Source: Eledone cirrhosa (Eukaryota). From it: a stretch of DNA of 64,000 nucleotides. The notes beneath the pieces were generated by a model, which saw only the letters and a list, made by a program, of their open reading frames with translations, did no database searches and was not told where the DNA came from. Both the position numbers and the translations under genes were made by a program. This document shows, piece by piece, positions 898 through 63,290 of this stretch. Numbering within the stretch: position 1 is the stretch's first letter; each line of letters opens with the position of its first letter. The stretch covers positions 281,976,001 to 282,040,000 of the forward strand of contig OZ024742.1 of the NCBI GenBank assembly GCA_964016885.1, given 5' to 3'.

Positions 898-2759
898 ATG
901 GATTATTACAACATAACCACTTCAACTAAAGACATTCCTATACTTTGTAAATCTGAATTCACCAAACTTCTGATTGAAAAAACTGACTCCTTTATGAGAA
1001 GTCTTAGATGGATAGCTTTTTTCCACGACCAGCGCCAAAAAGGAAATTTCTATACTAAGGAACATAACTTTCTTGATCATTTATTTAATTCTAGAAGAAA
1101 TCCTCCTTCCAACAAAAATCTAGTACAGTTCGAGGAAGAATTAACTAATATTATAAGAAATCTTAAATTCAAGAGAAACCCTTACAGAGGACAAGAGCAC
1201 CTTGTAAATCTCATGAATACGATTTTAAACCTTAATTCCTCTAAAAATGTCTTAGACCACTCCGATAAAACTAATAATTTATATGGTGTATCTAGGGATA
1301 ACTATAATAACCTTATCCTTAAGGAACTAAGGAAGAACTATCGTAAAACTAACCATGACAATTTGGAATCTATAAACTTTGAAGCTTCTGAGATTATGTC
1401 AAAACTTGGCATTGAAAAAAAGACCGAACCATTCCTCCCAAGAACTCCGAGGATAAATCTCAAGGATCATAAAAGTAATTTTCGAACGGCACTACCTGTT
1501 AGACTAATCGCCCCCTCTAAATCAGACCTGCGGTTTGTTATTAAAGCCATCTTGGATAGAATTATCCCACGGGTTCGTTCTAATTGCTCTATTTCTAACT
1601 GAAATTTATGGTTTGATACATCTGAAGTAATTGGCTGGTTCAACAACCTGAATAAGAAAAACAAACAAAAATGTATTCAATTTGATATTGCCAGCTACTA
1701 GAATATCAAACTTATCCTCTAATAAAAAATATCTTCGCCAATTACTATAATAATGCGCTTTCTAAAGCCGGTTATCATGATAAAATTAAATACAGTAAAG
1801 AAACCAATCCTAGAAGGTCTTACAGTAAAATAATTAATTATGATCATTCCAATAACTTAAATAAAAGACCTAGATATAAAAATATAATCTGGTATAATGC
1901 TCCTTTCTCTATTTCTAATAATAATAATATTCCTAAACTATTCTTTAGGGCCTTAGATAAATGCTTCACTCCCTCACATATCTATAGTAAAATATTTAAC
2001 AAACATACGATAACATTTTCCTATTCGACCTCCTCCAACATCTCTAACATTATCTCTAAACACAACAATAAAATATTAAATATTAAATCACACCCTTCCA
2101 ACACTGAGCGTCATAATAATAGCAGTAGTACTTCCGACGTCATTGTTAATTCTAGGCTAGGCTCTGTAAATTCAAATACGACGTCAAACGTAACTTCGTT
2201 GAATGTTCATAATACCAATCTAAATCATGAAACTATTATTCCTATCGTAAATAACTTCTCCAATCCAATTCCTCCTATAAATAACACTAGGTCACTTGTT
2301 AATAACTCTGTCAATTTCTCTAATCGAAATTGTAATTGCCCTGTTAGAACTAAATGTCCTCTCAATAACCATTGTCTTTATAAAAAGTTAGTCTATGAAT
2401 GTAAGGTTATAACTGATACCAATTCCTTTACCTATTTCTGTTCCACTTCCACCTCCTTCAAAGCTAGATTTTATGATCACAATTCGTCTTTTAAATACCA
2501 ACCTAAAAGAACTAACACGGCACTCTCAGAACACATATAGTCCTTGAAAGACAAAAATATTAACTTTAACATCTCTTGGAGTAAAGTTTGTTCTGCCTCT
2601 CCCTACTTGAATGTCTCCCTATCCAGAACATGTAATCTTTGCCTAGCTGAGAAATTTACCATTATATCTAATTTCAATTCTATAATAAATAGACGCACGG
2701 ATTTATTTTCTCTCTGCTTGCATAAATTCCACAGAACATTCCATAAAGTATACAGCTAA
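898..2759 (+). pseudogene. PLE RT N-terminus plus C-terminal GIY-YIG endonuclease, disrupted
   Basis: SDKTNNLY and LKDHK..F....PVRLIAPSKSDL (PLE RT N-terminus). CNCPVRTKCPLNNHC..LVYECKV..TYFCSTSTSFKARFYDH..TALSEHI*..W..CNLCLAEK..INRRTDL..CLH (GIY-YIG with CxC linker). Stops and a large deletion near 1700. Confidence 0.85.
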
Positions 2760-4166: not shown

Positions 4167-5940
<1,774 letters not shown>

Positions 5941-7210
5941 CTACCAATCTTATTTAAACCACAAGGAATCTAGATCTATAACAAGAAATTAAATTAATTG
6001 ATAGGTATACTTATAGAGATAAATTTATATTAATTCATATGAATGTGATAAATAAGAGTTAGATGTTATTAAAGAGTGTTGTTAAAAACGAAGGGAAGTA
6101 AAATTTTGGGATAAGGGTAGTAGTGAGAAATACCAATCTTATATAAACTACAAGGAATCTAGATTCATAATAGGAAATTAAATTTATTTATAGGTATACT
6201 TTTAGGTATAATTTTAGGAAAAGAGAGCTGTAAGAGCGAAATAAAATTATGAAGTTCTCTGTAGTAAAGTACTAATTATAGGTTAACTAAATAAAAAAAA
6301 CCAATTATAATAATATGTAAAATATAAGTGTAAAGTGTATATTAATTAGGTTTATAATATTTGAAGGTTCTTCTAATTCTATGCTTGCAAGATATAATTA
6401 ATTCCTGTTGCTTATTTAATAGGATATCCTTAGATTTCATGATTTCAAAAAGTTCCTCGTATCTGTTATTTTTATAAGGCGTGGCCCTTTTGAGCATACT
6501 CCAGGTCAGGTTGTAATTGATATTCATCTCTATATAATTATTAATTGTTTCAGCCAAGGATGTTGTATTAGCTAATGCGGCATTTTTAAAACTATGTTTG
6601 TGGGTATTAAATCTTATTTTAAATTGGTTAGACGTAGCTCCTATATATGAACAAGTGGAGTCCTTAGTGCTAATTTTACATTTATAGACTATGTTATTAA
6701 TAAGATAATTTCCCTTTAACGGGCAATTTCTTTTGATTCTACAGTTACAACCATATCAGGGGAGTTAGTCAAATTTGGTGTGGAATTTACTCGACTTATT
6801 ATAGCTGTAGGAGATGGTGGTTTGTTGCGGTTTATTTTAGTATTATGGTTGGTTTGATGTGTTGGTGGTATATTTGTGGGGTTTTTACATTTATATGCGT
6901 TGTACGCACTTATATTTTATTGTATATTTTTGGTAGTGGAGTAGGGAAATTTGACAGTTGATCTATTTAAAATTTGATGGTATTTATGGTTTGGCGGGAA
7001 GTTTTTCTCTAGGATAGTAAAAAAAGTTTTAGGGATATTATCTTTAATGTGTAGATTAAATGGAGCATTATACCAAGTAACCCGTCTATTACGGTTTCGA
7101 TATTGTTTTTTATATTTTCAGCAGTTCTTACACACTCTGAATTTTATATATTGTATTAAGTTTGCAATTTTGTATTAACTTTTTGATAGAAAACCACCTT
7201 ATACCGCCAC
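5941..7210 (-). mobile_element. Second decayed PLE fragment (RT thumb plus GIY-YIG)
   Basis: Reverse-strand translation: RRVTWYNAPFN..NFPPNHKYHQILNRSTVKFPYST; GCNCRIKRNCPLKG..NIVYKCKI..YIGATSNQFKIRFNTHKHSF..LLNKQQELIISCKH. Confidence 0.85.
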
Positions 7211-9109: not shown

Positions 9110-9535
9110 GGAGGAAGTTCTAGTTCACTTGAAGCATTGTGTAATGAGGTATAAAATGCTGTAGTTGTAAGGCCAAGACAATGCAGGTATGAATATAGAA
9201 TATAAATGCAAATGCAAAATATATTGTTGACAATTAGTCTTTTACCTTAAATTTATTTAAATATCCTTAATTTTCGAGATAATATCTCTTCTTCGGAGGG
9301 AAGTAAAGTGGTTAATCCAGTGTTCTAATTAGCTAGCCAAGTCAGCATGACTTGGCAAGCTAATTAGAACACTGGATTAACCACTTTACTTCCCTCCGAA
9401 GAAGAGATATTATCTCGAAAATTAAGGATATTTAAATAAATTTAAGGTAAAAGACTAATTGTCAACAATATATTTTGCATTTGCATTTATATTCTATATT
9501 CATACCTGCATTGTCTTGGCCTTACAACTACAAAC

Positions 9536-9541
<6 letters not shown>
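9110..9541. mobile_element. Fold-back non-autonomous PLE derivative (arms about 190 bp plus 40 bp tail)
   Basis: 9161-9344 is the reverse complement of 9348-9531, centre 9346. HHR-like motif at 9393-9427, TA flanks. Sister copy at 27235-27499. Confidence 0.85.
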
Positions 9542-9577
<36 letters not shown>

Positions 9578-11444: not shown

Positions 11445-11954
11445 CAATTTGAATGAATTAAAAACCTGTTTAGACCATTACTCACCAGAATACTCGATAC
11501 TTGGGGCAGTAGAATGTGGTAAAATGAAAGTTGAAGATTAAAAAATAACAAAAACACAGAAATACAGTTACACAAAGTTTTATGAGTTACATGCTTTTGG
11601 AAAAGGAAAATGAGTGCCTCAGCGTATCCGACGTTAGTCCTTCATCAGGAAGAGAAAAGTAGGGAGAATGAGGAGCATCGAAGGGAGAGGGGGGGAGGTA
11701 AACATTAAAATAGTGTTACCAGAATGGGTTACATGGGCAGATAAGTAATCAAGTGTGCGTGATGTTTCAACTTCGCATTTGAAAAGAGGGTTATAGCCCT
11801 GAAATATCCTGCTAAAATACACTGGGTAAAAGATTACTTTGTTTTACTTTGTTTTATTTGTCATTTTTAACCCTTCGTATTCACTACCGCATTGTATCGG
11901 CTTAAAGAAAAAAGAGTTATCGGTATTTTATTACACACACACACATACACACAC

Positions 11955-21034: not shown

Positions 21035-21644
21035 ATATATATATATATATATATATATAGGGGCGATGAATTAGTTTTGCGAGGTTTTTTATATGAAATC
21101 GTGTGTCGAAACAGATATTGTTATATTTGGGGAGGGTCATATTTGCGTAATATTGCCAGAATTAATAACAGAACACACTCACTGTTTGGTTGGTTTTCGC
21201 TTCTCGCTGTCTTTTATATATATATATCTGCGATCTAACTTACTCGGTCCTCAATGTTGCCATTGACTGACCGGTGGTCAAAAATAATACAGATACAATA
21301 TAGACAAACACATATATATATAGTTTACATAATTTACATAAATCTTTCGTTGCACATCTGCAACATCGTCAGTGGTGTTATATTCATTGTTCCTCATGTT
21401 GTGTTGTATGTCTACGCCATTTTTTTTGTTCAGTCTGTCTATATATTTATTTATTTATTAGCTTGTTTGTTTATCTTATTTTATTTTGTCTTCTTTGCGC
21501 ATGCGTTTGCGTGTGTGTATAGTGTTATGTGTGATGTGTGACTAGTGTGTATAGTGTTGTGTCTGCTGGGTGACTAGTGTGTGTTTATGTGCTTGTGTAT
21601 GTATTTATTTATCTTATTTTATTTAATTTAATTTACTTATTTAT

Positions 21645-22616
21645 TTATACTTCTCTTAGGTCAGTGTTGTTTGTTTGGGTGTTGTTGTTGTTCCACTCAT
21701 TCTTTCTGTTTAGCTTTGGTCTTCTAATTTCTATTTCACTGGCCTCTCTGATTTGCCTATCTGCTGGGTCATTCCTATGTTTAGATATTATTCTAATTTC
21801 TATGTTGTCTATGTTACCGTCATGTTGTTGTCTAGCATGTTCGTATAGTACTGACCCGTTTTTTCGTCCTTTTAGTTCCCCCCAGTGTTGGTCTATCCTT
21901 TCACCTATGCTACGAGCTGTCTCACCTATGTATGTTGTTGTCGTGTTTCTGCAAGTACCCTCTGTACATCTTATGCTATAGACTACGTTTCTAGTTTTAC
22001 AGTTTATCCGGGGGTTCACCTTACATATGATACATTTCCTATTGGTACAGTGGGTTTTCTTAAAAGGGTAGGTTTTGCTGATCAGGGATTTTATGGTGGT
22101 TCCTGGCTTTTCTACCACCTTTATTTTTAAGTGGGTCTTTCTCAGGGCCTTTCTACACTGGTTAGCTAATTTCCCTCCAGGGGTGGCGTCCACAAACATG
22201 ACACTCTGATATCTCTGGTTGTCGTACCATGATGTGGCCTTCCCTATCTTATGTCTAGCCCTATCTAAGCTATTCCATGATTTGCTCCTATATAGTGGGC
22301 AAATTCCTTTCATGTCCAGTTCTATGAGGGTCTTATACTTTTCCATGGCTCCTTCGTATACTCTGACTCTGTCTCTTTGGTTGTAGCCAGAGAACTGCAT
22401 GCGGTTGATGAAGTGTTGGATGTGTCCTTCCATTTCTGTTGGGTCGCACATGCTGGACACATTCTTCATCACTCGTACCAAATCTGCGATCAGAATATTA
22501 AACTTAGCACTACTGGACATTGCTGAGTTTTTGAGTATCAGGTATTTGGAGGCCATGGGTTTAGCATAGTGTGAGTAGAGAATTTGGGCTCTCTCGTCTA
22601 TAGTGTTAATCCAGAG
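21645..22616 (-). pseudogene. Inverted duplicate of the PLE A ORF C-terminus
   Basis: The 303-aa ORF is identical to the + copy except IELDM vs IEQDM. Confidence 0.88.
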
Positions 22617-22654: not shown

Positions 22655-24022
22655 ATGGTCGCACATGCAATAGGGGCTAGTATCAAAACTACCCTAAAGG
22701 GCCACATATTTAAGTTCAATGAGAAAATCTACACCCAAAATGAGGGAGCAGCCATCGGCGTCAGCATAGCTGGTGATGTTGCCAACCTTTTCATGGTATG
22801 GTGGGAAAGGAGACTTAAAGATCTCCTTAATGAAAGCTCCATAGACCTCATCATGTACTCTCGTTATGTAGACGATATCAATATAGTTATAAGAACACCC
22901 CCACTAGAGAGCACTAACAAGTTTGATTTAGAACGTAGCACGATGGAAAGCATCCAGCAGATAGCTAATTCCATACACCAGAGTATAACTGTAACTATAG
23001 ACTTCTCTTCCAAACACCCTAACAATAGACTACCTGTATTAGACACAGAACTCTGGATTAACACTATAGACGAGAGAGCCCAAATTCTCCACTCACACTA
23101 TGCTAAACCCATGGCCTCCAAATACCTGATACTCAAAAACTCAGCAATGTCCAGTAGTGCTAAGTTTAATATTCTGATCGCAGATTTGGTACGAGTGATG
23201 AAGAATGTGTCCAGCATGTGCGACCCAACAGAAATGGAAGGACACATCCAACACTTCATCAACCGCATGCAGTTCTCTGGCTACAACCAAAGAGACAGAG
23301 TCAGAGTATACGAAGGAGCCATGGAAAAGTATAAGACCCTCATAGAACAGGACATGAAAGGAATTTGCCCACTATACAGGAGCAAATCATGGAATAGCTT
23401 AGATAGGGCTAGACATAAGATAGGGAAGGCCACATCATGGTACGACAACCAGAGATATCAGAGTGTCATGTTTGTGGACGCCACCCCTGGAGGGAAATTA
23501 GCTAACCAGTGTAGAAAGGCCCTGAGAAAGACCCACTTAAAAATAAAGGTGGTAGAAAAGCCAGGAACCACCATAAAATCCCTGATCAGCAAAACCTACC
23601 CTTTTAAGAAAACCCACTGTACCAATAGGAAATGTATCATATGTAAGGTGAACCCCCGGATAAACTGTAAAACTAGAAACGTAGTCTATAGCATAAGATG
23701 TACAGAGGGTACTTGCAGAAACACGACAACAACATACATAGGTGAGACAGCTCGTAGCATAGGTGAAAGGATAGACCAACACTGGGGGGAACTAAAAGGA
23801 CGAAAAAACGGGTCAGTACTATACGAACATGCTAGACAACAACATGACGGTAACATAGACAACATAGAAATTAGAATAATATCTAAACATAGGAATGACC
23901 CAGCAGATAGGCAAATCAGAGAGGCCAGTGAAATAGAAATTAGAAGACCAAAGCTAAACAGAAAGAATGAGTGGAACAACAACAACACCCAAACAAACAA
24001 CACTGACCTAAGAGAAGTATAA
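22655..24022 (+). CDS. PLE RT (C-terminal half, YVDD) plus Cys-rich linker plus GIY-YIG endonuclease; open but 5'-truncated
   Basis: Q.EGAAIG, RYVDDI, LPVLD, HYAKPM; CTNRKCIIC..C..NVVYSIRC..C..YIGETARSIGERIDQH..H..H..LNRKNEW. Clade label is from memory. Confidence 0.88.
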   Translation: MVAHAIGASIKTTLKGHIFKFNEKIYTQNEGAAIGVSIAGDVANLFMVWWERRLKDLLNESSIDLIMYSRYVDDINIVIRTPPLESTNKFDLERSTMESIQQIANSIHQSITVTIDFSSKHPNNRLPVLDTELWINTIDERAQILHSHYAKPMASKYLILKNSAMSSSAKFNILIADLVRVMKNVSSMCDPTEMEGHIQHFINRMQFSGYNQRDRVRVYEGAMEKYKTLIEQDMKGICPLYRSKSWNSLDRARHKIGKATSWYDNQRYQSVMFVDATPGGKLANQCRKALRKTHLKIKVVEKPGTTIKSLISKTYPFKKTHCTNRKCIICKVNPRINCKTRNVVYSIRCTEGTCRNTTTTYIGETARSIGERIDQHWGELKGRKNGSVLYEHARQQHDGNIDNIEIRIISKHRNDPADRQIREASEIEIRRPKLNRKNEWNNNNTQTNNTDLREV

Positions 24023-24564
24023 ATAAATAAGTAAATTAAATTAAATAAAATAAGATAAATAAATACATACACAAGCACATAAACACACACTAGTCACTCA
24101 GCAGACACAACACTATACACACTAGTCACACATCACACATAACACTATACACACACGCAAACGCATGCGCAAAGAAGACAAAATAAAATAAGATAAACAA
24201 ACAAGCTAATAAATAAATAAATATATAGACAGACTGAACAAAAAAAATGGCGTAGACATACAACACAACATGAGGAACAATGAATATAACACCACTGACG
24301 ATGTTGCAGATGTGCAACGAAAGATTTATGTAAATTATGTAAACTATATATATATGTGTTTGTCTATATTGTATCTGTATTATTTTTGACCACCGGTCAG
24401 TCAATGGCAACATTGAGGACCGAGTAAGTTAGATCGCAGATATATATATATAAAAGACAGCGAGAAGCGAAAACCAACCAAACAGTGAGTGTGTTCTGTT
24501 ATTAATTCTGGCAATATTACGCAAATATGACCCTCCCCAAATATAACAATATATATATATATAT

Positions 24565-24940: not shown

Positions 24941-25191
24941 ATATATATATATATATATAATTGTTTCTACTTTTGGCACAAGGCCAGCATAACGCACCAG
25001 CGTACTCAATACTTAGGGTAGTAGAGTGGGAAAAAATACTTTTTCCTATATATATATATATATATATATATAATGAAGATCTAACACCTCGTCATTATTA
25101 TATGTTGACTTTGCCTTTCATCTTTACGGGGTCGATAAAATAAAGTACCAGTAATGCACTGGGTAATTGCTGGCCTTGTGCCTATATTGTG

Positions 25192-25229
<38 letters not shown>

Positions 25230-25231
<2 letters not shown>

Positions 25232-25319
25232 CAAAGGAATTGTGGTAAGGAACCAGATGGACCATAACGCACCAGCGTACTCAATACTTAGGGTAGTAGA
25301 GTGGGAAAAAATACTTTTT

Positions 25320-25323
<4 letters not shown>
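25230..25323 (-). mobile_element. Family H (about 80-bp tail plus hairpin), short copy; another partial copy at 24988-25048
   Basis: aaggaattgtggtaaggaaccagatggaccataacgcacc..gtagtagagtggg plus a mini hairpin, in (TA)n. Confidence 0.75.
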
Positions 25324-27530: not shown

Positions 27531-30328
27531 TTCGTTTCTGAATTTGTTTACCAAGATTCTTTATCTGAGAGCGTGTGTTGAAACCGATATTGTTATACTT
27601 TGGGAGGGTCATGTTGCCAATAAGAAACACACGCACCAGTTGCTTCATTTCAATTTATTATAATAAATTTATAAATTTAGGAATTTATAAATTTCCGGTT
27701 GGTTGGTTGGTTCCACAACCAGATGGTTGTTTATATATTGTCAAAGTTCTTTCGTCACACATTCTGTGACCTCTTCAGTGACTGGGGATTCTTTTCTTTG
27801 TTTTTTGTGCTTCTCCTTTGTTCTGACCTACGCCATCTTGTTTTTGTGTGTTGTGTGGTTAGTTTGCGCATGTGTTACATCCGGGTATCTGTGTGTGTTT
27901 ATATTCGTTTATTTATTTGTTTATTTACATGTTACTGGCTGGTTGTTTGTTCCATGTGCGTGTGTGTTTTCATTTTGTCCTTAATTGTAAGTTGTGATGT
28001 TGCTGTTCCACTCATGTTTTCTATTTAATTTTTGTTGTAATTCATTTATGTTTATTGCCTCTGTGATTTGTCTAAACATTGCGTCTTTTCTTTGTGTAGA
28101 TTCTATTTTTATTTCTATGTTTTCTAATTTACCCTTATGTTCTATTTTAGCATGTTGGTAGAGTACAGATGATTCTTTACTAGCTTGAAGGTCTCGCCAG
28201 TGTTCATTTATCCGTTCTCCTTTACTACGAGCTGTCTCACCTATGTACACTATATTTTTATCTCTACATTGTCCTTCAGTACATCTTATGTTATATACTA
28301 CATTTCTAGTTTTACAGTTATTATGGGGGTATAATTTACAGATTATACATTTCTTATCTATACAGGCAGGTCTTTGAAAAGGGTATGTCTTGCTAATATG
28401 TGTTTTTGATGGAGGTACCTGGTCTTTCTACTATCTTAATATTGAGTTTATGTTTATCTAGGGCCTTTCTAAATTTGTAAGCTAATTCACTTCTAGGGGT
28501 TGTATCGATGAACATTACACTCTGGTATTTATTGCTATCATACCATGAGTTTATTCTATTAGCCTTATTCCTACTTCTTTCTATTCTATTCCAAAATTTG
28601 CTCCTATACAAGGGGCAGCTCCCATTTGTGTCATTATTTACCATTTTTTCCCATTTGGTTCTGGCTCCTCTATACACTCTGATTTTATTTCTCTGATTGT
28701 AACCAGAGAACTGCATACGGTGGATGAAGTGTTGTATGTGTCTCTCTTGTTCTTCGGGGTTGCACATGCGGGACACGTTTCTCATCACCCGTACCAAATC
28801 CGCAATCAGTATGTTGATTTTGGTATGGTCCGAAACAGCTGAGTTTCGGTGGATCAGATATTAGGAAGTCATGGGTTTGGCATAATGGGAATGAGGATTT
28901 GTTTTTTGTTATTAATGATATCTAACCAGAGCTCTGTGTCTAGTACAGGTAATCGATGGTTGGGGTGTTTGCTTGGGTAGTCTATAGTAACTTTAATACT
29001 CTGGTGGATGGAGTTAGCTATTTGCTGGATGCTTTCCATTGTGTTTTTCTCTAATTCCTGACTGTTCTCTACGGGGGGTGTTTTAACTACGATGTTTATA
29101 TCATCAACGTAGCGGGAGTACATTATCAGGGTTAAGGGGTCTTCTAATTGTTCTTTAAGTTTAAGTTTAAGTCTACTGTCCCACCATACAATGAATAGGT
29201 TAGCTATGTAGCCTGCAATGCTAACACCAATGGCTGCTCCCTCCTCTTGGGCATATGTTTTTCCGTTAAATTTGAACATATGTTCCTTAAGGGTTAATTT
29301 TATGCTGGCCCCCACCGCATGTGCAATCATTTTCTTTAGTTCATCGTGGTTTTCGGGGGTCCGCATGGTTCTGGTCCACAATGGCCAAGAAAACCCACAC
29401 ATATAGATGGAACGGGTGGACCAGAGGTGAATTAGCTTACAAATTTAGAAAGGCCCTAGATAAACATAAACTCAATATTAAGAGAGTAGAAAGACCAGGT
29501 ACCTCCATAAAAACACTTATTAGCAAGACATACCCTTTTCAAAGACCTGCCTGTATAGATAAGAAATGTATAATCTGTAAATTATACCCCATATTAACTG
29601 TAAAACTAGAAATGTAGTGTATAACATAAGATGTACTGAAGGACAATGTAGAGATAAAAATATAGTGTACATAGGTGAGACAGCTCGTAGTAAAGGAGAA
29701 CGGATAAATGAACACTGGCGAGACCTTCAAGCTAGTAAAGAATCATCTGTACTCTACCAACATGCTAAAATAGAACATAAGGGTAAATTAGAAAACATAG
29801 AAATAAAAATAGAATCTACACAAAGAAAAGACGCAATGTTTAGACAAATCACAGAGGCAATAAACATAAATGAATTACAACGAAAATTAAATAGAAAACA
29901 TGAGTGGAACAGCAACATCACAACTTACAATTAAGGACAAAATGAAAACACACACGCACATAGAACAAACAACCAACTAGTAACATGTAAATAAACAAAT
30001 AAATAAACGAATATAAACACACACAGACACCCAGATGTAACACATGCGCAAACTAAGCACACAACACACAAAGACAAGATGGCGTAGGTCAGAACAAAGG
30101 AGAAGCACAAAAAACAAAGAAAAGAATCCCCAGTCACTGAAGAGGTCACAGAATGTGTGACGAAAGAACTTTGACAATATATAAACAACCATCTGGTTGT
30201 GGAACCAACCAACCAACCGGAAATTTATAAATTCCTAAATTTATAAATTTATTATAATAAATTGAAGTGAAACAACTGGTGCGTGTGTTTCTTATTGGCA
30301 ACCTGACCCTCCCAAAGCATAACAATAT
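27531..30328. mobile_element. Penelope-like element B (related to A), 5'-truncated with a 0.9-kb inverted duplication
   Basis: Minus-strand RT (RYVDDI, LPVLD) and YIGETAR with frameshifts. Arms 27587-28494 and 29423-30328, tail 27531-27586. HHRs at 27740-27782(-) and 30133-30175(+). Confidence 0.9.
30133..30175 (+). ncRNA. Minimal hammerhead in PLE B pLTR
   Basis: GUCA CUGAAGA G GUCACA gaaug UGUGAC GAAAG AA CUU UGAC. Confidence 0.75.
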
Positions 30329-32152: not shown

Positions 32153-32349
32153 ATCGGAAAAGGTTTGACCCCGACGGCAGAGCTGAAGCCGTTTCGACGG
32201 CTTTTTCTGGACTCCAGAAATACCCGGCGAAAAGGCTTGAGCTCTGCCGTCAGGGTCAAACATTTTCCTATTACCCACTCTACTACCCTAAGTATTGAGT
32301 ACTCTGGAGCGTTAAGGTCCATCTGGTTCCTTACCACAACTCCTTCGTT
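32153..32349 (+). mobile_element. Family H fold-back copy
   Basis: Hairpin 32153-32271 plus tail ..ggttccttaccacaactccttcgtt. Confidence 0.8.
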
Positions 32350-32737: not shown

Positions 32738-32921
32738 ATAGGAAAAAGTATGACGCCGACGGCAGAGCTCAAGCCGTTTCGACGGCTATTTCTGGACTGT
32801 CAAAACGGCTTGAGCTCTGCCGTCGGGGGTCATACTTTTTCCTATTTCCCACTCTACTACCCTAAGTATTGAGTATTCTGGTGCGTTATGGTCCATCTGG
32901 TTCCTTACCACATTTCCTTTG

Positions 32922-32923
<2 letters not shown>
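32738..32923 (+). mobile_element. Family H fold-back copy
   Basis: Hairpin ggaaaaagtatgac..gtcatactttttcc plus tail. Confidence 0.8.
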
Positions 32924-33636: not shown

Positions 33637-33825
33637 AACGAAGGAAATGTGGTATGGAACCAGGTGGACCATAACGCACCAAAGTACTCAATACTTAGGG
33701 TAGTAGAGTGGGTAATAGGAACAAGTAAGACCCCGACGGCTGAGCTCAAGCCGTTTCGACGGCTAATTCAGTCCAGAATTAGCCGTCGAAACGGCTTGAG
33801 CTCAGCCATCGGGGTCTTACCTGTT

Positions 33826-33830
<5 letters not shown>
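33637..33830 (-). mobile_element. Family H fold-back copy
   Basis: Tail 33637-33714 plus hairpin 33715-33830. Confidence 0.82.
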
Positions 33831-34270: not shown

Positions 34271-34878
34271 TTTCGTTTCTGAATTTGTTTAGCAAGATTC
34301 TTTATCTGAAATCGTGTGTTGAAACCGATATTGTTATACTTTGGGAGGGTCATGTTGCCAATAAGAAACACACGCACCAGTTGCTTTCACTTCAATTTAT
34401 TATATATTTATAAATTTATAAATTTACAAATCTACAAACTTATAAATTTCTGGTTGGTTGGTTGGTTCCACAACCAGATAGTTGTTTATATATATAGTCA
34501 TAGTCCTTTCGTCACACACTCTGTGACCTCTTCCATGACTAGGGATTCCTTTCTTCGTTTCTGTGCCTTTTCTTTCTTCTATCCTACGCCATTTTGAAAA
34601 TGGCGTAGGATAGAAGAAAGAAAAGGCACAGAAAGAAAAGGCACAGAAACGAAGAAAGGAATCCCCAGTCACTGAAGAGGTCACAGAGTGTGTGACGAAA
34701 GGACTATGACTATATATATAAACAACTATCTGGTTGTAGAACCAACCAACCAACCAGAAATTTATAAGTTTGTAGATTTGTAAATTTATAAATTTATAAA
34801 TATATAATAAATTGAAGTGAGACAACTGGTGCGTGTGTTTCTTATTGGCAACATGACCCTCCCAAAGTATAACAATAT
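34271..34878. mobile_element. Fold-back of PLE B-family pLTR (no ORF)
   Basis: Arms 34328-34595 and 34597-34878, tail 34271-34327. Intact HHR at 34667-34711(+): AGUCA CUGAAGA..GAAAG GA CUA UGACU. Confidence 0.88.
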
Positions 34879-37320: not shown

Positions 37321-37848
<528 letters not shown>

Positions 37849-37944: not shown

Positions 37945-38053
37945 AACGAAGGAAGTGTGGTAAGTAACAAGGTGGACCATAATGCACCAAAGTACTCGAT
38001 ACTGGGTAGTAGAGTGTGAAATAGGAAAAGAGTCGGGTCCTGACTCTTCCTAT
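37945..38053 (-). mobile_element. Family H copy with short hairpin
   Basis: Tail plus ataggaaaagagtcgggtcctgactcttcctat. Confidence 0.75.
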
Positions 38054-45920: not shown

Positions 45921-46299
<379 letters not shown>

Positions 46300-50007: not shown

Positions 50008-51291
50008 ATTACATACGTGAACATCTAGTGTGTACGTACTTAAAAATAACAACAAGCGTTACAATGCCATTTTCCTCGCAATTTTTTTACAGCCGGATAC
50101 CTTGCCTGGCACCAAACCTTTTAGTCGCCTCTTAGTGGCTTAGTTGTTAGAAAATTGGATTTACAACCGTAAGGTTGTGAATTTGAAATATTCACCAGTT
50201 GTTGCGTTATGTCCTCGAGCAAGGCACTTTATATCACGTTGCTCCAGTTCACTCAGCTGGAAAAATGAGTTTCGATGTCACTGGTGTCAATCTGTCTTAG
50301 CCTATGCCTTTCCCGTAGACGACATCGTTGGCGTGGAATGGAAATGGGTGACTGATGGTGTTCCACAAAAACATCTTGAACGCGTTTGTGTCTCAGAAGG
50401 GAACTTTCTAGTTGAGAAATCTATAGTCATTCGTGATCGAAAGGGGACTTTACTCGTTGTACAAGCACACCGTACACGCAGGCGTACGTTGTACTTGTAA
50501 AAAAATAAACGGATACCCGCAGTACTGTACTTACAAGTAACAGCACAGAATATAAGAATTAAAACCCTAGGTCTATGCCAAAATGACCAGCCCGACTTCT
50601 GCAATAGTCTGACGTATCTATAATGATAGATGTATAGCATGTTCCACAATATAGCAATAAAATTTTAATTAATGTTTCGGACATTTAAACACGTCATTAG
50701 TTAACCTTCAAAAATGTCATGCCCGACATCCGACATATACGTGCAGGTTGTATTAAGAAAAGAAAACAATTGCAGAATTTTTCAAACGGTAATATTTAAT
50801 ATTTGTTATTGTCACAGAGGCAACGATAAGGAGGTCATATCATTACAAGGGTGAATTACAAATATGGCGGAGGACGTTGTGCTTTTGTTTATGTTTTTGT
50901 TTGTTGTATTTCTTTCATAATTGTGAGGAAAGATAAAGAACATAGAGGACAAAACAAAGAAACAAGATTATTAGTAATATAACTAATAATAAAATAATAG
51001 TAATAGATATAATAAATATTATTATTATTATCAATTTTGTTGTTGATATTGTTGCTGATAATGTTTTTGTTGCACTTGCAAACACGATAAAGGAGACCAA
51101 AACACAATTTAAAAGATTTTCAACAAGGAAAACAATGAAACATATAAAGATATCATCATGACCATCTTGGGAATATATAAAAATATGTCTTTATGATATG
51201 TCTTTATGATATATATAAAAAAAAAAAAAATATATATATATATATATATAACGAAGGGAATGTGGTAAGGAACCAGATGGACCATAACGCA

Positions 51292-51325
<34 letters not shown>

Positions 51326-54819: not shown

Positions 54820-54824
<5 letters not shown>

Positions 54825-54990
54825 AAAAGAGTCAGAATCCCGACGGCTGAGCTCCGGCCGTCTCGACAGATGTCGAAACGGCCGGAGCTCAGCCGTCGGG
54901 ATCCTGACTCTTTTCCTATTACCCACTCTACTACCCTAAGTATCGAGTACTCTGGTACGTTATGGTCCACCTGATTCCTTACCACACTTT

Positions 54991-62419: not shown

Positions 62420-62965
62420 ACACTCATCACTGAAAGCGACGGAAGTCCATTCGATTCCATTTCAGCCTCTTGGGAAATGTTTTCTTTTTTTTGTTAATAG
62501 CCTTTGTCCAGACATAGAGAACTACACTTACGACCTTGAAGGTCCTTCTAACGCTTCTTAGATCGATGGCTAACCCACGAAAAGAAACATGACTCCAGTT
62601 GATATCTTTCATTTCCTTACTTTGTTTACTTTCAGGTCAAATAGGTTAAGTTGTATCCGACCACAAAATGTTGTGTTACAGTGAAAATAGTGGAATGTTT
62701 CTGTAACCAATAGGTGGTATACGTTTAACAGTAGCTGCCACCAGGCATACAATAAACATACTTTCCAAACACTCTTATAAACTATTTACATATACTCCAC
62801 ACACATATGGGGGTTTTATTTTTATTTTGTTCTACCTATACTTCATTCTTCATTCACTAATTTTGAATGAATGAAATATATGTGTTTGTGTGTGTTTGTT
62901 TGTGTTTGTCTGTGTGTGTGTATTTGTGTACACATACACCACACAGACATATGTGTATATGTATC

Positions 62966-63010
<45 letters not shown>

Positions 63011-63015
<5 letters not shown>

Positions 63016-63213
63016 AACCAGTAAGACCCCCACGGCTGAGCTCAAGCCGTTTCGACGGCTAATTCTGGACTAAAATTAGTCCAGAATTAGCCGTCGAAAC
63101 GGCTTGAGCTCAGCCGTCGGGGTCTTACTGGTTCCTATTACCCACTCTACTACCCAAAGTATTGAGTACTTTGGTGCGTTATGGTCCACCTGGTTCCTTA
63201 CCACATTCCCTTC

Positions 63214-63216
<3 letters not shown>
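63011..63216 (+). mobile_element. Family H fold-back copy (most complete)
   Basis: Near-perfect hairpin 63011-63138, centre 63074-63075, plus tail 63139-63216. Confidence 0.87.

Positions 63217-63290
<74 letters not shown>

What the first reader, a model, noticed from the sequence alone, without database searches (positions are those of the whole stretch)
63011..63216. Family H folds back inside a hammerhead: GAAAC..GUC half retained, CUGANGA half always missing
Seen: about 11 copies (24988, 25230, 32153, 32738, 33637, 37945, 46032, 51250, 54820, 63011, diverged about 11470). In the tail orientation 63096-63122 reads GAAAC GGC UUGAGCUCA GCC GUC GGGG, which fits HHR stem III, a GUC triplet and the stem I 3' strand. 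The palindrome centre (actaaaattagt, identical at about 46170 and 63074) lies where the stem II loop would be. No copy has CUGANGA upstream. Inference: cDNA made through a long stem II self-primes there and copies back, so the ribozyme's own hairpin sets the insertion shape and produces dead half-ribozymes. The stem II assignment cannot be separated from the inversion within this window.
Basis: partly seen in the sequence, partly recalled or inferred. Interest (0 to 1): 0.75.

Follow-up and report, generated by a model that had tools for sequence, protein, structure and literature searches.

The report
Retrotransposon promoter splits its own ribozyme
These short palindromes are truncated copies of a Penelope-like retrotransposon; they lack half of its self-cutting ribozyme because nearly all copies stop at one point inside the ribozyme's loop, which is likely the capped start of the element's RNA, and a second stop at the predicted cut site likely records the ribozyme cutting in living cells.

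Summary
The palindromes are real: short insertions of a Hydra-clade Penelope-like element (3,546-bp tandem unit, 715-aa RT + GIY-YIG ORF) in (TA)n. Its mechanism is not supported. Short copies never contain the stem II 5' strand or loop that self-priming needs. Both arms instead stop at one wall: 43 of 54 sense arms that reach it end within 7 nt of the A of (T/C)AGTCC. That site looks like an initiator, has a TATA-like box at -29, and often carries an extra non-parental G (86 G: 14 A in 100 rows of 3,662 hits), the known trace of a copied cap. So the RNA likely starts inside loop II, and the core half lies upstream of it. A second, base-exact stop at GUC^GGGG suggests cleavage in vivo. The inverted arm is longer in 26 of 94 copies and some arms do not overlap, which favours two primings on one RNA over snap-back. 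No RNA data were available.

The parts
62956..63013 (.). (TA)n target, left side
   Evidence: inverted arm begins at its last TA
63012..63074 (-). Inverted arm: element +1 (or -3) to +60, beginning at internal site 2 (CCTA)
   Evidence: same start in 80 of 106 arm hits classed, and loose ends there
63076..63216 (+). Sense arm with 80-nt tail, element -2 to +139
   Evidence: aligns to parent unit
63078..63078 (+). +1: wall where arms stop; inferred capped transcription start in an initiator-like (T/C)AGTC
63088..63095 (+). Hammerhead stem II, 3' strand (partner absent in this copy)
   Evidence: parent fold
63096..63117 (+). GAA core half and stem III with near-palindromic loop
63118..63119 (+). 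Predicted self-cleavage site GUC^GGGG (+41/+42); second stop site of arms genome-wide
63119..63123 (+). Stem I, 3' strand
63132..63137 (+). Site 2: inferred second reverse-transcription start (TA microhomology to target)
63138..63216 (+). Tail between the two starts; ends at site 1, continues into the 5' UTR in tandem parents
63218..63287 (.). (TA)n target, right side
46032..46236 (-). Sister copy, both arms at the wall, mirror junction to 63011
33637..33830 (-). Sister copy, inverted arm longer than sense arm
32153..32349 (+). Older-subfamily copy, inverted arm ends at +1
32738..32923 (+). Older-subfamily copy, inverted arm longer
54820..54986 (+). Divergent copy turning near +13
37945..38050 (-). 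Copy turning near the cleavage site, no GAAAC
24988..25322 (-). Two copies turning near +50, no ribozyme sequence
51250..51295 (-). Tail fragment
11473..11522 (-). Diverged tail fragment (82%)

Best explanation
The palindromes are short insertions of a Hydra-clade Penelope-like retrotransposon whose RNA likely begins, capped, inside loop II of its own hammerhead, so copies made from that RNA end stop there and lack the core half. Shown: parent, ribozyme anatomy, the wall at +1, the extra G, the second stop at +42, the two fixed starts. Inferred: the protein cuts both strands of a (TA)n target; one 3' end primes at the tail end (+140), the other at site 2 (+60), on the same RNA; both cDNAs run to the RNA's 5' end (cap, ribozyme cut, or an early stop) and are joined head to head by end joining. 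Priming in a downstream repeat of a read-through RNA gives the long copies with whole ribozymes. A new mRNA would thus escape its own ribozyme, while read-through RNA would be cut at +42.
For: Wall: 43 of 54 sense arms reaching +2 stop in -4..+2 (0.114 per nt, against 0.012 at +3..+40 and 0 of 11 at -5..-12); 32 of 32 short inverted arms reaching it stop there too, after 60 rather than 140 nt, so the stop is set by the template, not by length. Extra G: 3,662 genome hits with antisense C or T after +1, first 100 rows 86 C: 14 T; after +2 only 12 C in 100 rows of 5,156; no complete parent has G at -1 (0 of 22); in loci 23 G against 7 A. Such G is attributed to cap copying in L1/SVA (PMC3287187 passage). 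TATA-like box at -29, ATG at +232. Cut site: 8 of 82 at +41/42 (p=2e-4); 7 of 19 direct-to-TA junctions at +42, none at +41..+36 (hand tally; p=2e-5). Two primings: inverted arm longer in 26, sense arm in 18, equal in 50 of 94; non-overlapping arms in L037, L201, L260. One RNA: subfamily marks agree on both arms in 64 of 64 (chance 0.35 each); both arms pass the wall in 16 of 16 long insertions read by hand. In vitro a PLE cuts and extends both strands from two internal sites (PMC11167929).
Against: No RNA evidence: start, cap and cleavage rest on genomic junctions alone. About half of the 23 G's could come from the partner arm; about 7-8 G against 2 A are unambiguous (hand reading). In direct-to-TA junctions 8 of 32 carry C after +1 against 1 of 18 elsewhere, not significant (p=0.13). 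Stops at +2 are as common as at +1, and ends at -1..-3 cannot be told from added A's. The 30-copy set shows no +42 stop (0 of 23). The ribozyme alignment has no compensatory change and does not beat shuffles; parent folds have weak z-scores (-0.5 to -2.3), and 2 of 4 parents did not fold as a hammerhead. Arm agreement is also what snap-back predicts. L246, L249 and L285 have one arm at the wall and the other at +42, and L141 and L153 carry different marks on the two arms, which needs two templates or cleavage in trans.
Confidence: 0.62

Rival explanations
1. Same capped wall, but one priming only: the cDNA from the tail end reaches the RNA 5' end, snaps back, copies itself, is cut at site 2 by the endonuclease, and the palindrome centre later suffers lopsided deletions.
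For: Explains 64 of 64 concordant arms and long-long pairing; self-priming was proposed for PLE palindromes (PMC3846280 passage); site 2 contains ATT, the motif cut in vitro; 4 insertions have both arms starting at the tail end.
Against: Needs deletion in 26 of 94 young copies; arms end at RNA landmarks on either side (inverted arm exactly at +42 in 5 of 50 places); L037, L201, L260 have abutting, non-overlapping arms; junctions with extra base on both arms and 0-1 nt spacer leave no loop (5 such pairs rows).
Confidence: 0.25
2. The wall is not a transcription start but a strong reverse-transcriptase stop or another processing site (inner hairpin of loop II, bound protein, splice-acceptor-like TTTTCATT(T/C)AG), with terminal C addition.
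For: +1 lies in the 3' strand of a predicted inner helix; the site resembles a splice acceptor; stop spread over 7 nt.
Against: Stronger stems III and II 3' are passed; C addition is position-specific; arms keep the AG and no shared leader or exon is joined; arms past the wall almost never stop nearby.
Confidence: 0.1
3. One reading: cDNA copies through stem II, self-primes on it and copies back.
For: The centre does lie within the stem II/loop II region; stem III does mediate 4 of 130 junctions.
Against: No short copy holds loop II or the stem II 5' strand; no predicted product in 317 sources; 0 of 11 stops at -5..-12.
Confidence: 0.03

Closest known systems
Hydra clade of Penelope-like elements (PMC8557442)
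   Same: C-terminal GIY-YIG without CCHH, DKT, CxCx5C linker, CxxC and CxH motifs, (TA)n target, hammerhead near the 3' end, inverted 5'-truncated copy (listed for Penelope-13_HM).
   Different: Unit 3.5 kb (published mostly under 3 kb); published Hydra ribozymes all have CUGANGA, loop 2 of 3-10 nt and tiny stem III; here UUGANAA, about 35-40 nt loop II, 6-bp stem III, 80-nt tail. Ribozyme differs from Hydra-1_oBim.
PAc/Poseidon of Anolis (PMC11167929)
   Same: Two internal reverse-transcription starts bounding a tail, AT-rich targets, both strands cut and extended.
   Different: There the tail is short and in the ORF, cleavage was not needed in vitro and no RNA ends were seen at the cut site; inverted copies were not explained. 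Here junctions show TA microhomology and an excess at the cut site.
PLE hammerheads (PMC4209133)
   Same: Type I, U3-A8 variant, long helix II, palindromic stem III, opposite-strand pairs 100-700 bp apart.
   Different: No in vivo cleavage evidence and no transcription start within the ribozyme reported in the sections read.
D. virilis Penelope promoter (PMC2377424) and A. vaga pLTR (PMC3846280)
   Same: Start site, initiator and TATA-like motifs inside the pLTR; head-to-head inverted repeats.
   Different: In D. virilis the ribozyme follows the intron, downstream of the start, so the mRNA holds it whole; palindromes were ascribed to self-priming on an antisense template.
L1 twin priming and cap-derived G (PMC11702581, PMC3287187)
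   Same: Second primer from the other target strand gives an inversion; extra G marks full-length 5' ends.
   Different: In L1 the second site is variable and arms abut; here it is fixed and arms usually overlap, giving palindromes.

Membership tests
Hydra-clade PLE | Single ORF, RT then C-terminal GIY-YIG endonuclease | tested here: met
   715-aa ORF with YRDD at 346 and YIG at 604; Atlas neighbours carry HTH_animal, GIY-YIG, RVT_1; Pfam and PDB searches gave nothing
Hydra-clade PLE | DKG changed to DKT | tested here: met
   DKT at 115 (definition)
Hydra-clade PLE | CxCx5C linker; CxxC and CxH in endonuclease; no CCHH | tested here: met
   570, 668, 696; one C only between the GIY-like and YIG motifs
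Hydra-clade PLE | RWK motif | tested here: inconclusive
   RWR seen near the N-terminus; not aligned to references
Hydra-clade PLE | (TA)n insertion and tandem/pLTR structure | tested here: met
Hydra-clade PLE | Placement in RT phylogeny | not tested
Type I hammerhead (parent) | Core boxes with variable position 7, three stems, NUH | tested here: met
   UUGANAA with N = G,U,C,A in 18 of 22, CUGAGAA in 4; 91% of cells paired; three-way fold for L012, L013
Type I hammerhead (parent) | Covariation in stems | tested here: inconclusive
   0 compensatory pairs among 16 close sequences
Type I hammerhead (parent) | Self-cleavage activity | not testable with these tools
   indirect only: excess of arm ends at +42
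Type I hammerhead (short copies) | Core 5' half present | tested here: not met
   absent in 11 of 11 window copies
Non-LTR retrozyme | Head-to-tail tandem non-coding units each with a whole hammerhead | tested here: not met
   short copies are head-to-head and lack the core; tandem units are coding; L244 repeats a 257-nt unit without the core
Pol II core promoter at +1 | Capped RNA 5' ends mapped at the site | not testable with these tools
   no RNA holder listed; initiator and TATA consensus are recalled, not from a call

The most novel reading that the evidence does not exclude
This element puts its promoter inside its ribozyme: new mRNA starts in loop II and is immune, read-through RNA is cut, and thousands of genomic junctions record three things never mapped in vivo for a Penelope-like element: the capped start, ribozyme cleavage, and twin priming from two fixed sites on one RNA as the source of the inverted pLTR.
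Probability: 0.45. Interest if true: 0.75.

Novelty: new variant of a known kind. Interest (0 to 1): 0.6.

Why it matters
How Penelope-like elements make their inverted ends and tails, and whether their hammerheads cut in cells, are open questions: one paper states the lack of in vivo evidence, another found no RNA ends at the cut site, a third proposed self-priming on antisense RNA. Here a very abundant young family gives base-exact predictions: RNA starts at +1, cut at +41/+42, priming at +60 and +140. A promoter nested in a ribozyme loop would be a simple way to process tandem read-through RNA without decapping the mRNA. Intact tandem copies make the in vitro assay feasible.

Tried and rejected
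Rfam scan of the window found no hammerhead family among the 150 of 185 rows shown. Pfam and PDB gave no match for the ORF. Tail DNA searches with the commonest variants returned nothing because common words are skipped. Evenly spaced 10-kb stretches gave only 17 tail hits in 76 stretches, too few, so tail-pattern samples were used. No RNA holder listed; contigs of four runs of unknown kind show depth falling past +1 and loose ends at both starts, but may be the same sample and cannot show a start. Neptune clade, my first guess, was dropped for Hydra on the motifs. Splicing at the acceptor-like site was rejected because arms keep the AG and no shared exon is joined. A parent subfamily with G at -1 was rejected (0 of 22). 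The GAAAC column used a faulty pattern and is ignored; its '7 of 16' was a miscount, redone as 7 of 19. Arm ends include 22 hand corrections of the automatic parse. Earlier findings: three look-ups, nothing. Covariation test uninformative.

Full report
Observation. The copy at 63011 is a 64-bp inverted repeat plus an 80-nt tail between (TA)n runs. All 11 listed copies exist and none holds a hammerhead core box, but only 6 of 11 carry the GAAAC..GUC half. The 46170 and 63074 centres are mirror images once both elements are read tail-last. The family is large: 6,837 exact matches to one tail variant, 17 tail hits in 760 kb of evenly spaced stretches.

Parent. A search of the own genome returned longer copies. 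Tandem arrays with a 3,546-bp unit hold an open 715-aa ORF with RT and C-terminal GIY-YIG domains. DKT, CxCx5C, CxxC, CxH, no CCHH and the (TA)n target match the Hydra clade as defined in PMC8557442 (passages; supplement part 2 of 59). No tree was built. Upstream of the retained half the parent reads CCCC-UUGAGAA-stem II; L012 and L013 fold as a three-way type I hammerhead, L002 and L030 do not in the minimum-energy fold. Position 7 varies freely while the rest of the core is kept. U3-A8 is a published PLE variant (PMC4209133, parts 1-2 of 4 read). Pairing is 91% but without covariation.

Where arms end. I took the first 100 of 6,837 and 30 of 31 exact matches to two tail variants, chosen without regard to their 5' ends, and mapped both arms (22 hand corrections). 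With +1 the A of (T/C)AGT(C/A)C: 25 of 130 sense arms end at +43..+70, 8 of 105 at +41/42, 43 of 97 at +3..+40, 43 of 54 at -4..+2, 0 of 11 at -5..-12, 2 at -13..-75, 9 beyond. Short inverted arms: 32 of 32 reaching +2 stop by -4. Self-priming on stem II needs cDNA past about -30; no short copy has it and no such product was found in 317 sources.

What the wall is. Arms of different length stop at the same base, so the template ends there. An extra base absent from all 22 complete parents follows +1: antisense C 86 times, T 14 times in 100 rows of 3,662 hits, against 12 C in 100 rows after +2. In junctions straight into (TA)n, 8 of 32 arms reaching +1 add C and 2 add T (hand tally of 50 places, two triplicates collapsed); against other stops this alone is not significant. 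An untemplated G at full-length 5' ends is ascribed to cap copying in L1 and SVA (PMC3287187 and PMC11702581, passages). A TATA-like box lies at -29 and the ATG at +232; the initiator and TATA consensus are recalled. PLE start sites lie in the pLTR (PMC2377424 and PMC3846280, passages). L244 repeats a 257-nt unit that begins at the wall. I infer a capped start inside loop II (about 0.85). Limits: stops at +2 are frequent, half of the G's are ambiguous, and no RNA was available.

Cleavage. Arm ends pile up at the first base after GUC: 8 of 82 in the 100-set, 0 of 23 in the 30-set, and 7 of 19 direct junctions with none at +41..+36; L264 has both arms ending there. This fits reverse transcription of the 3' cleavage product of read-through RNA; a structural stop at the junction is the alternative.

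Two arms. The inverted arm starts at a fixed CCTA, the tailed arm at CGTTA, both TA matches to the target. The inverted arm is longer in 26 of 94 copies, shorter in 18; a snap-back of the tailed cDNA cannot exceed its own length. L037 joins an inverted arm to a sense arm starting exactly at site 2, as in L1 twin priming. Marks agree on both arms in 64 of 64, and long arms pair with long arms in 16 of 16, pointing to one RNA; L141 and L153 are exceptions. Tail-end starts on both arms were seen 4 times, tail-less palindromes once at most (L294), in loci mostly chosen for a tail. The Anolis PLE cuts and extends both strands from two internal sites in vitro (PMC11167929, parts 1-2 of 4 and passages). 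Snap-back with later centre deletion remains possible (0.25).

Novelty. Family kind, hammerhead, tail and inverted copy are known. In nine answered paper searches (one search found nothing) and the parts read, I saw no start site inside a PLE hammerhead, no cap trace and no in vivo cleavage signal; subscription journals, Repbase and most supplements were not seen. The retrozyme preprint (10.64898/2026.07.22.740005, part 1 of 5) treats tandem whole-ribozyme units, which these are not. Verdict: new variant of a known kind, interest 0.6.

Noticed in passing
window 34387-34820: Another fold-back (191-nt arms) of a different family; it holds a complete CUGANGA minimal hammerhead at about 34667-34710 (+), with a mutated copy in the other arm.
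   Followed up: partly
window 9150-9542 and 37403-37753: Two more near-perfect palindromes (195 and 175-nt arms, 1-3 nt spacer) beside (TA)n, from unrelated families; likely the same insertion mechanism.
   Followed up: no
window 1084-2741 and 5624-7093: Broken ORF pieces 34-48% identical to the parent protein: other Hydra-like elements.
   Followed up: no
L244 (G000:C1:27008594-27011659): Tandem 257-nt units running from the wall into the ORF start with the same junction twice, headed by an inverted arm; template jumping or a small circular RNA.
   Followed up: partly
L018:1500-1900: Insertion whose centre holds an inverted piece of the ORF start between two arms ending at -35, a template switch between both ends of the unit.
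   Followed up: no
L030, L154, L220, L291: Four of 22 complete ribozyme sequences have CUGAGAA, a C3-A8 mismatch, possibly inactive or intermediate between the two cores.
   Followed up: no
L047/L048, L049/L050: Arrays of nearly identical full units with open ORFs, headed in L048 by a 1.4-kb inverted arm: recent activity.
   Followed up: partly
L213:1378-1500: Copy with many T-to-C changes clustered in the sense arm and a few in the inverted arm, resembling A-to-I editing of a double-stranded template.
   Followed up: no
window 21512-21658 and 24019-24155; 27663-27694 and 30221-30252: Pairs of tandem repeats that are reverse complements of each other about 2.5 kb apart, suggesting longer inverted insertions.
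   Followed up: no
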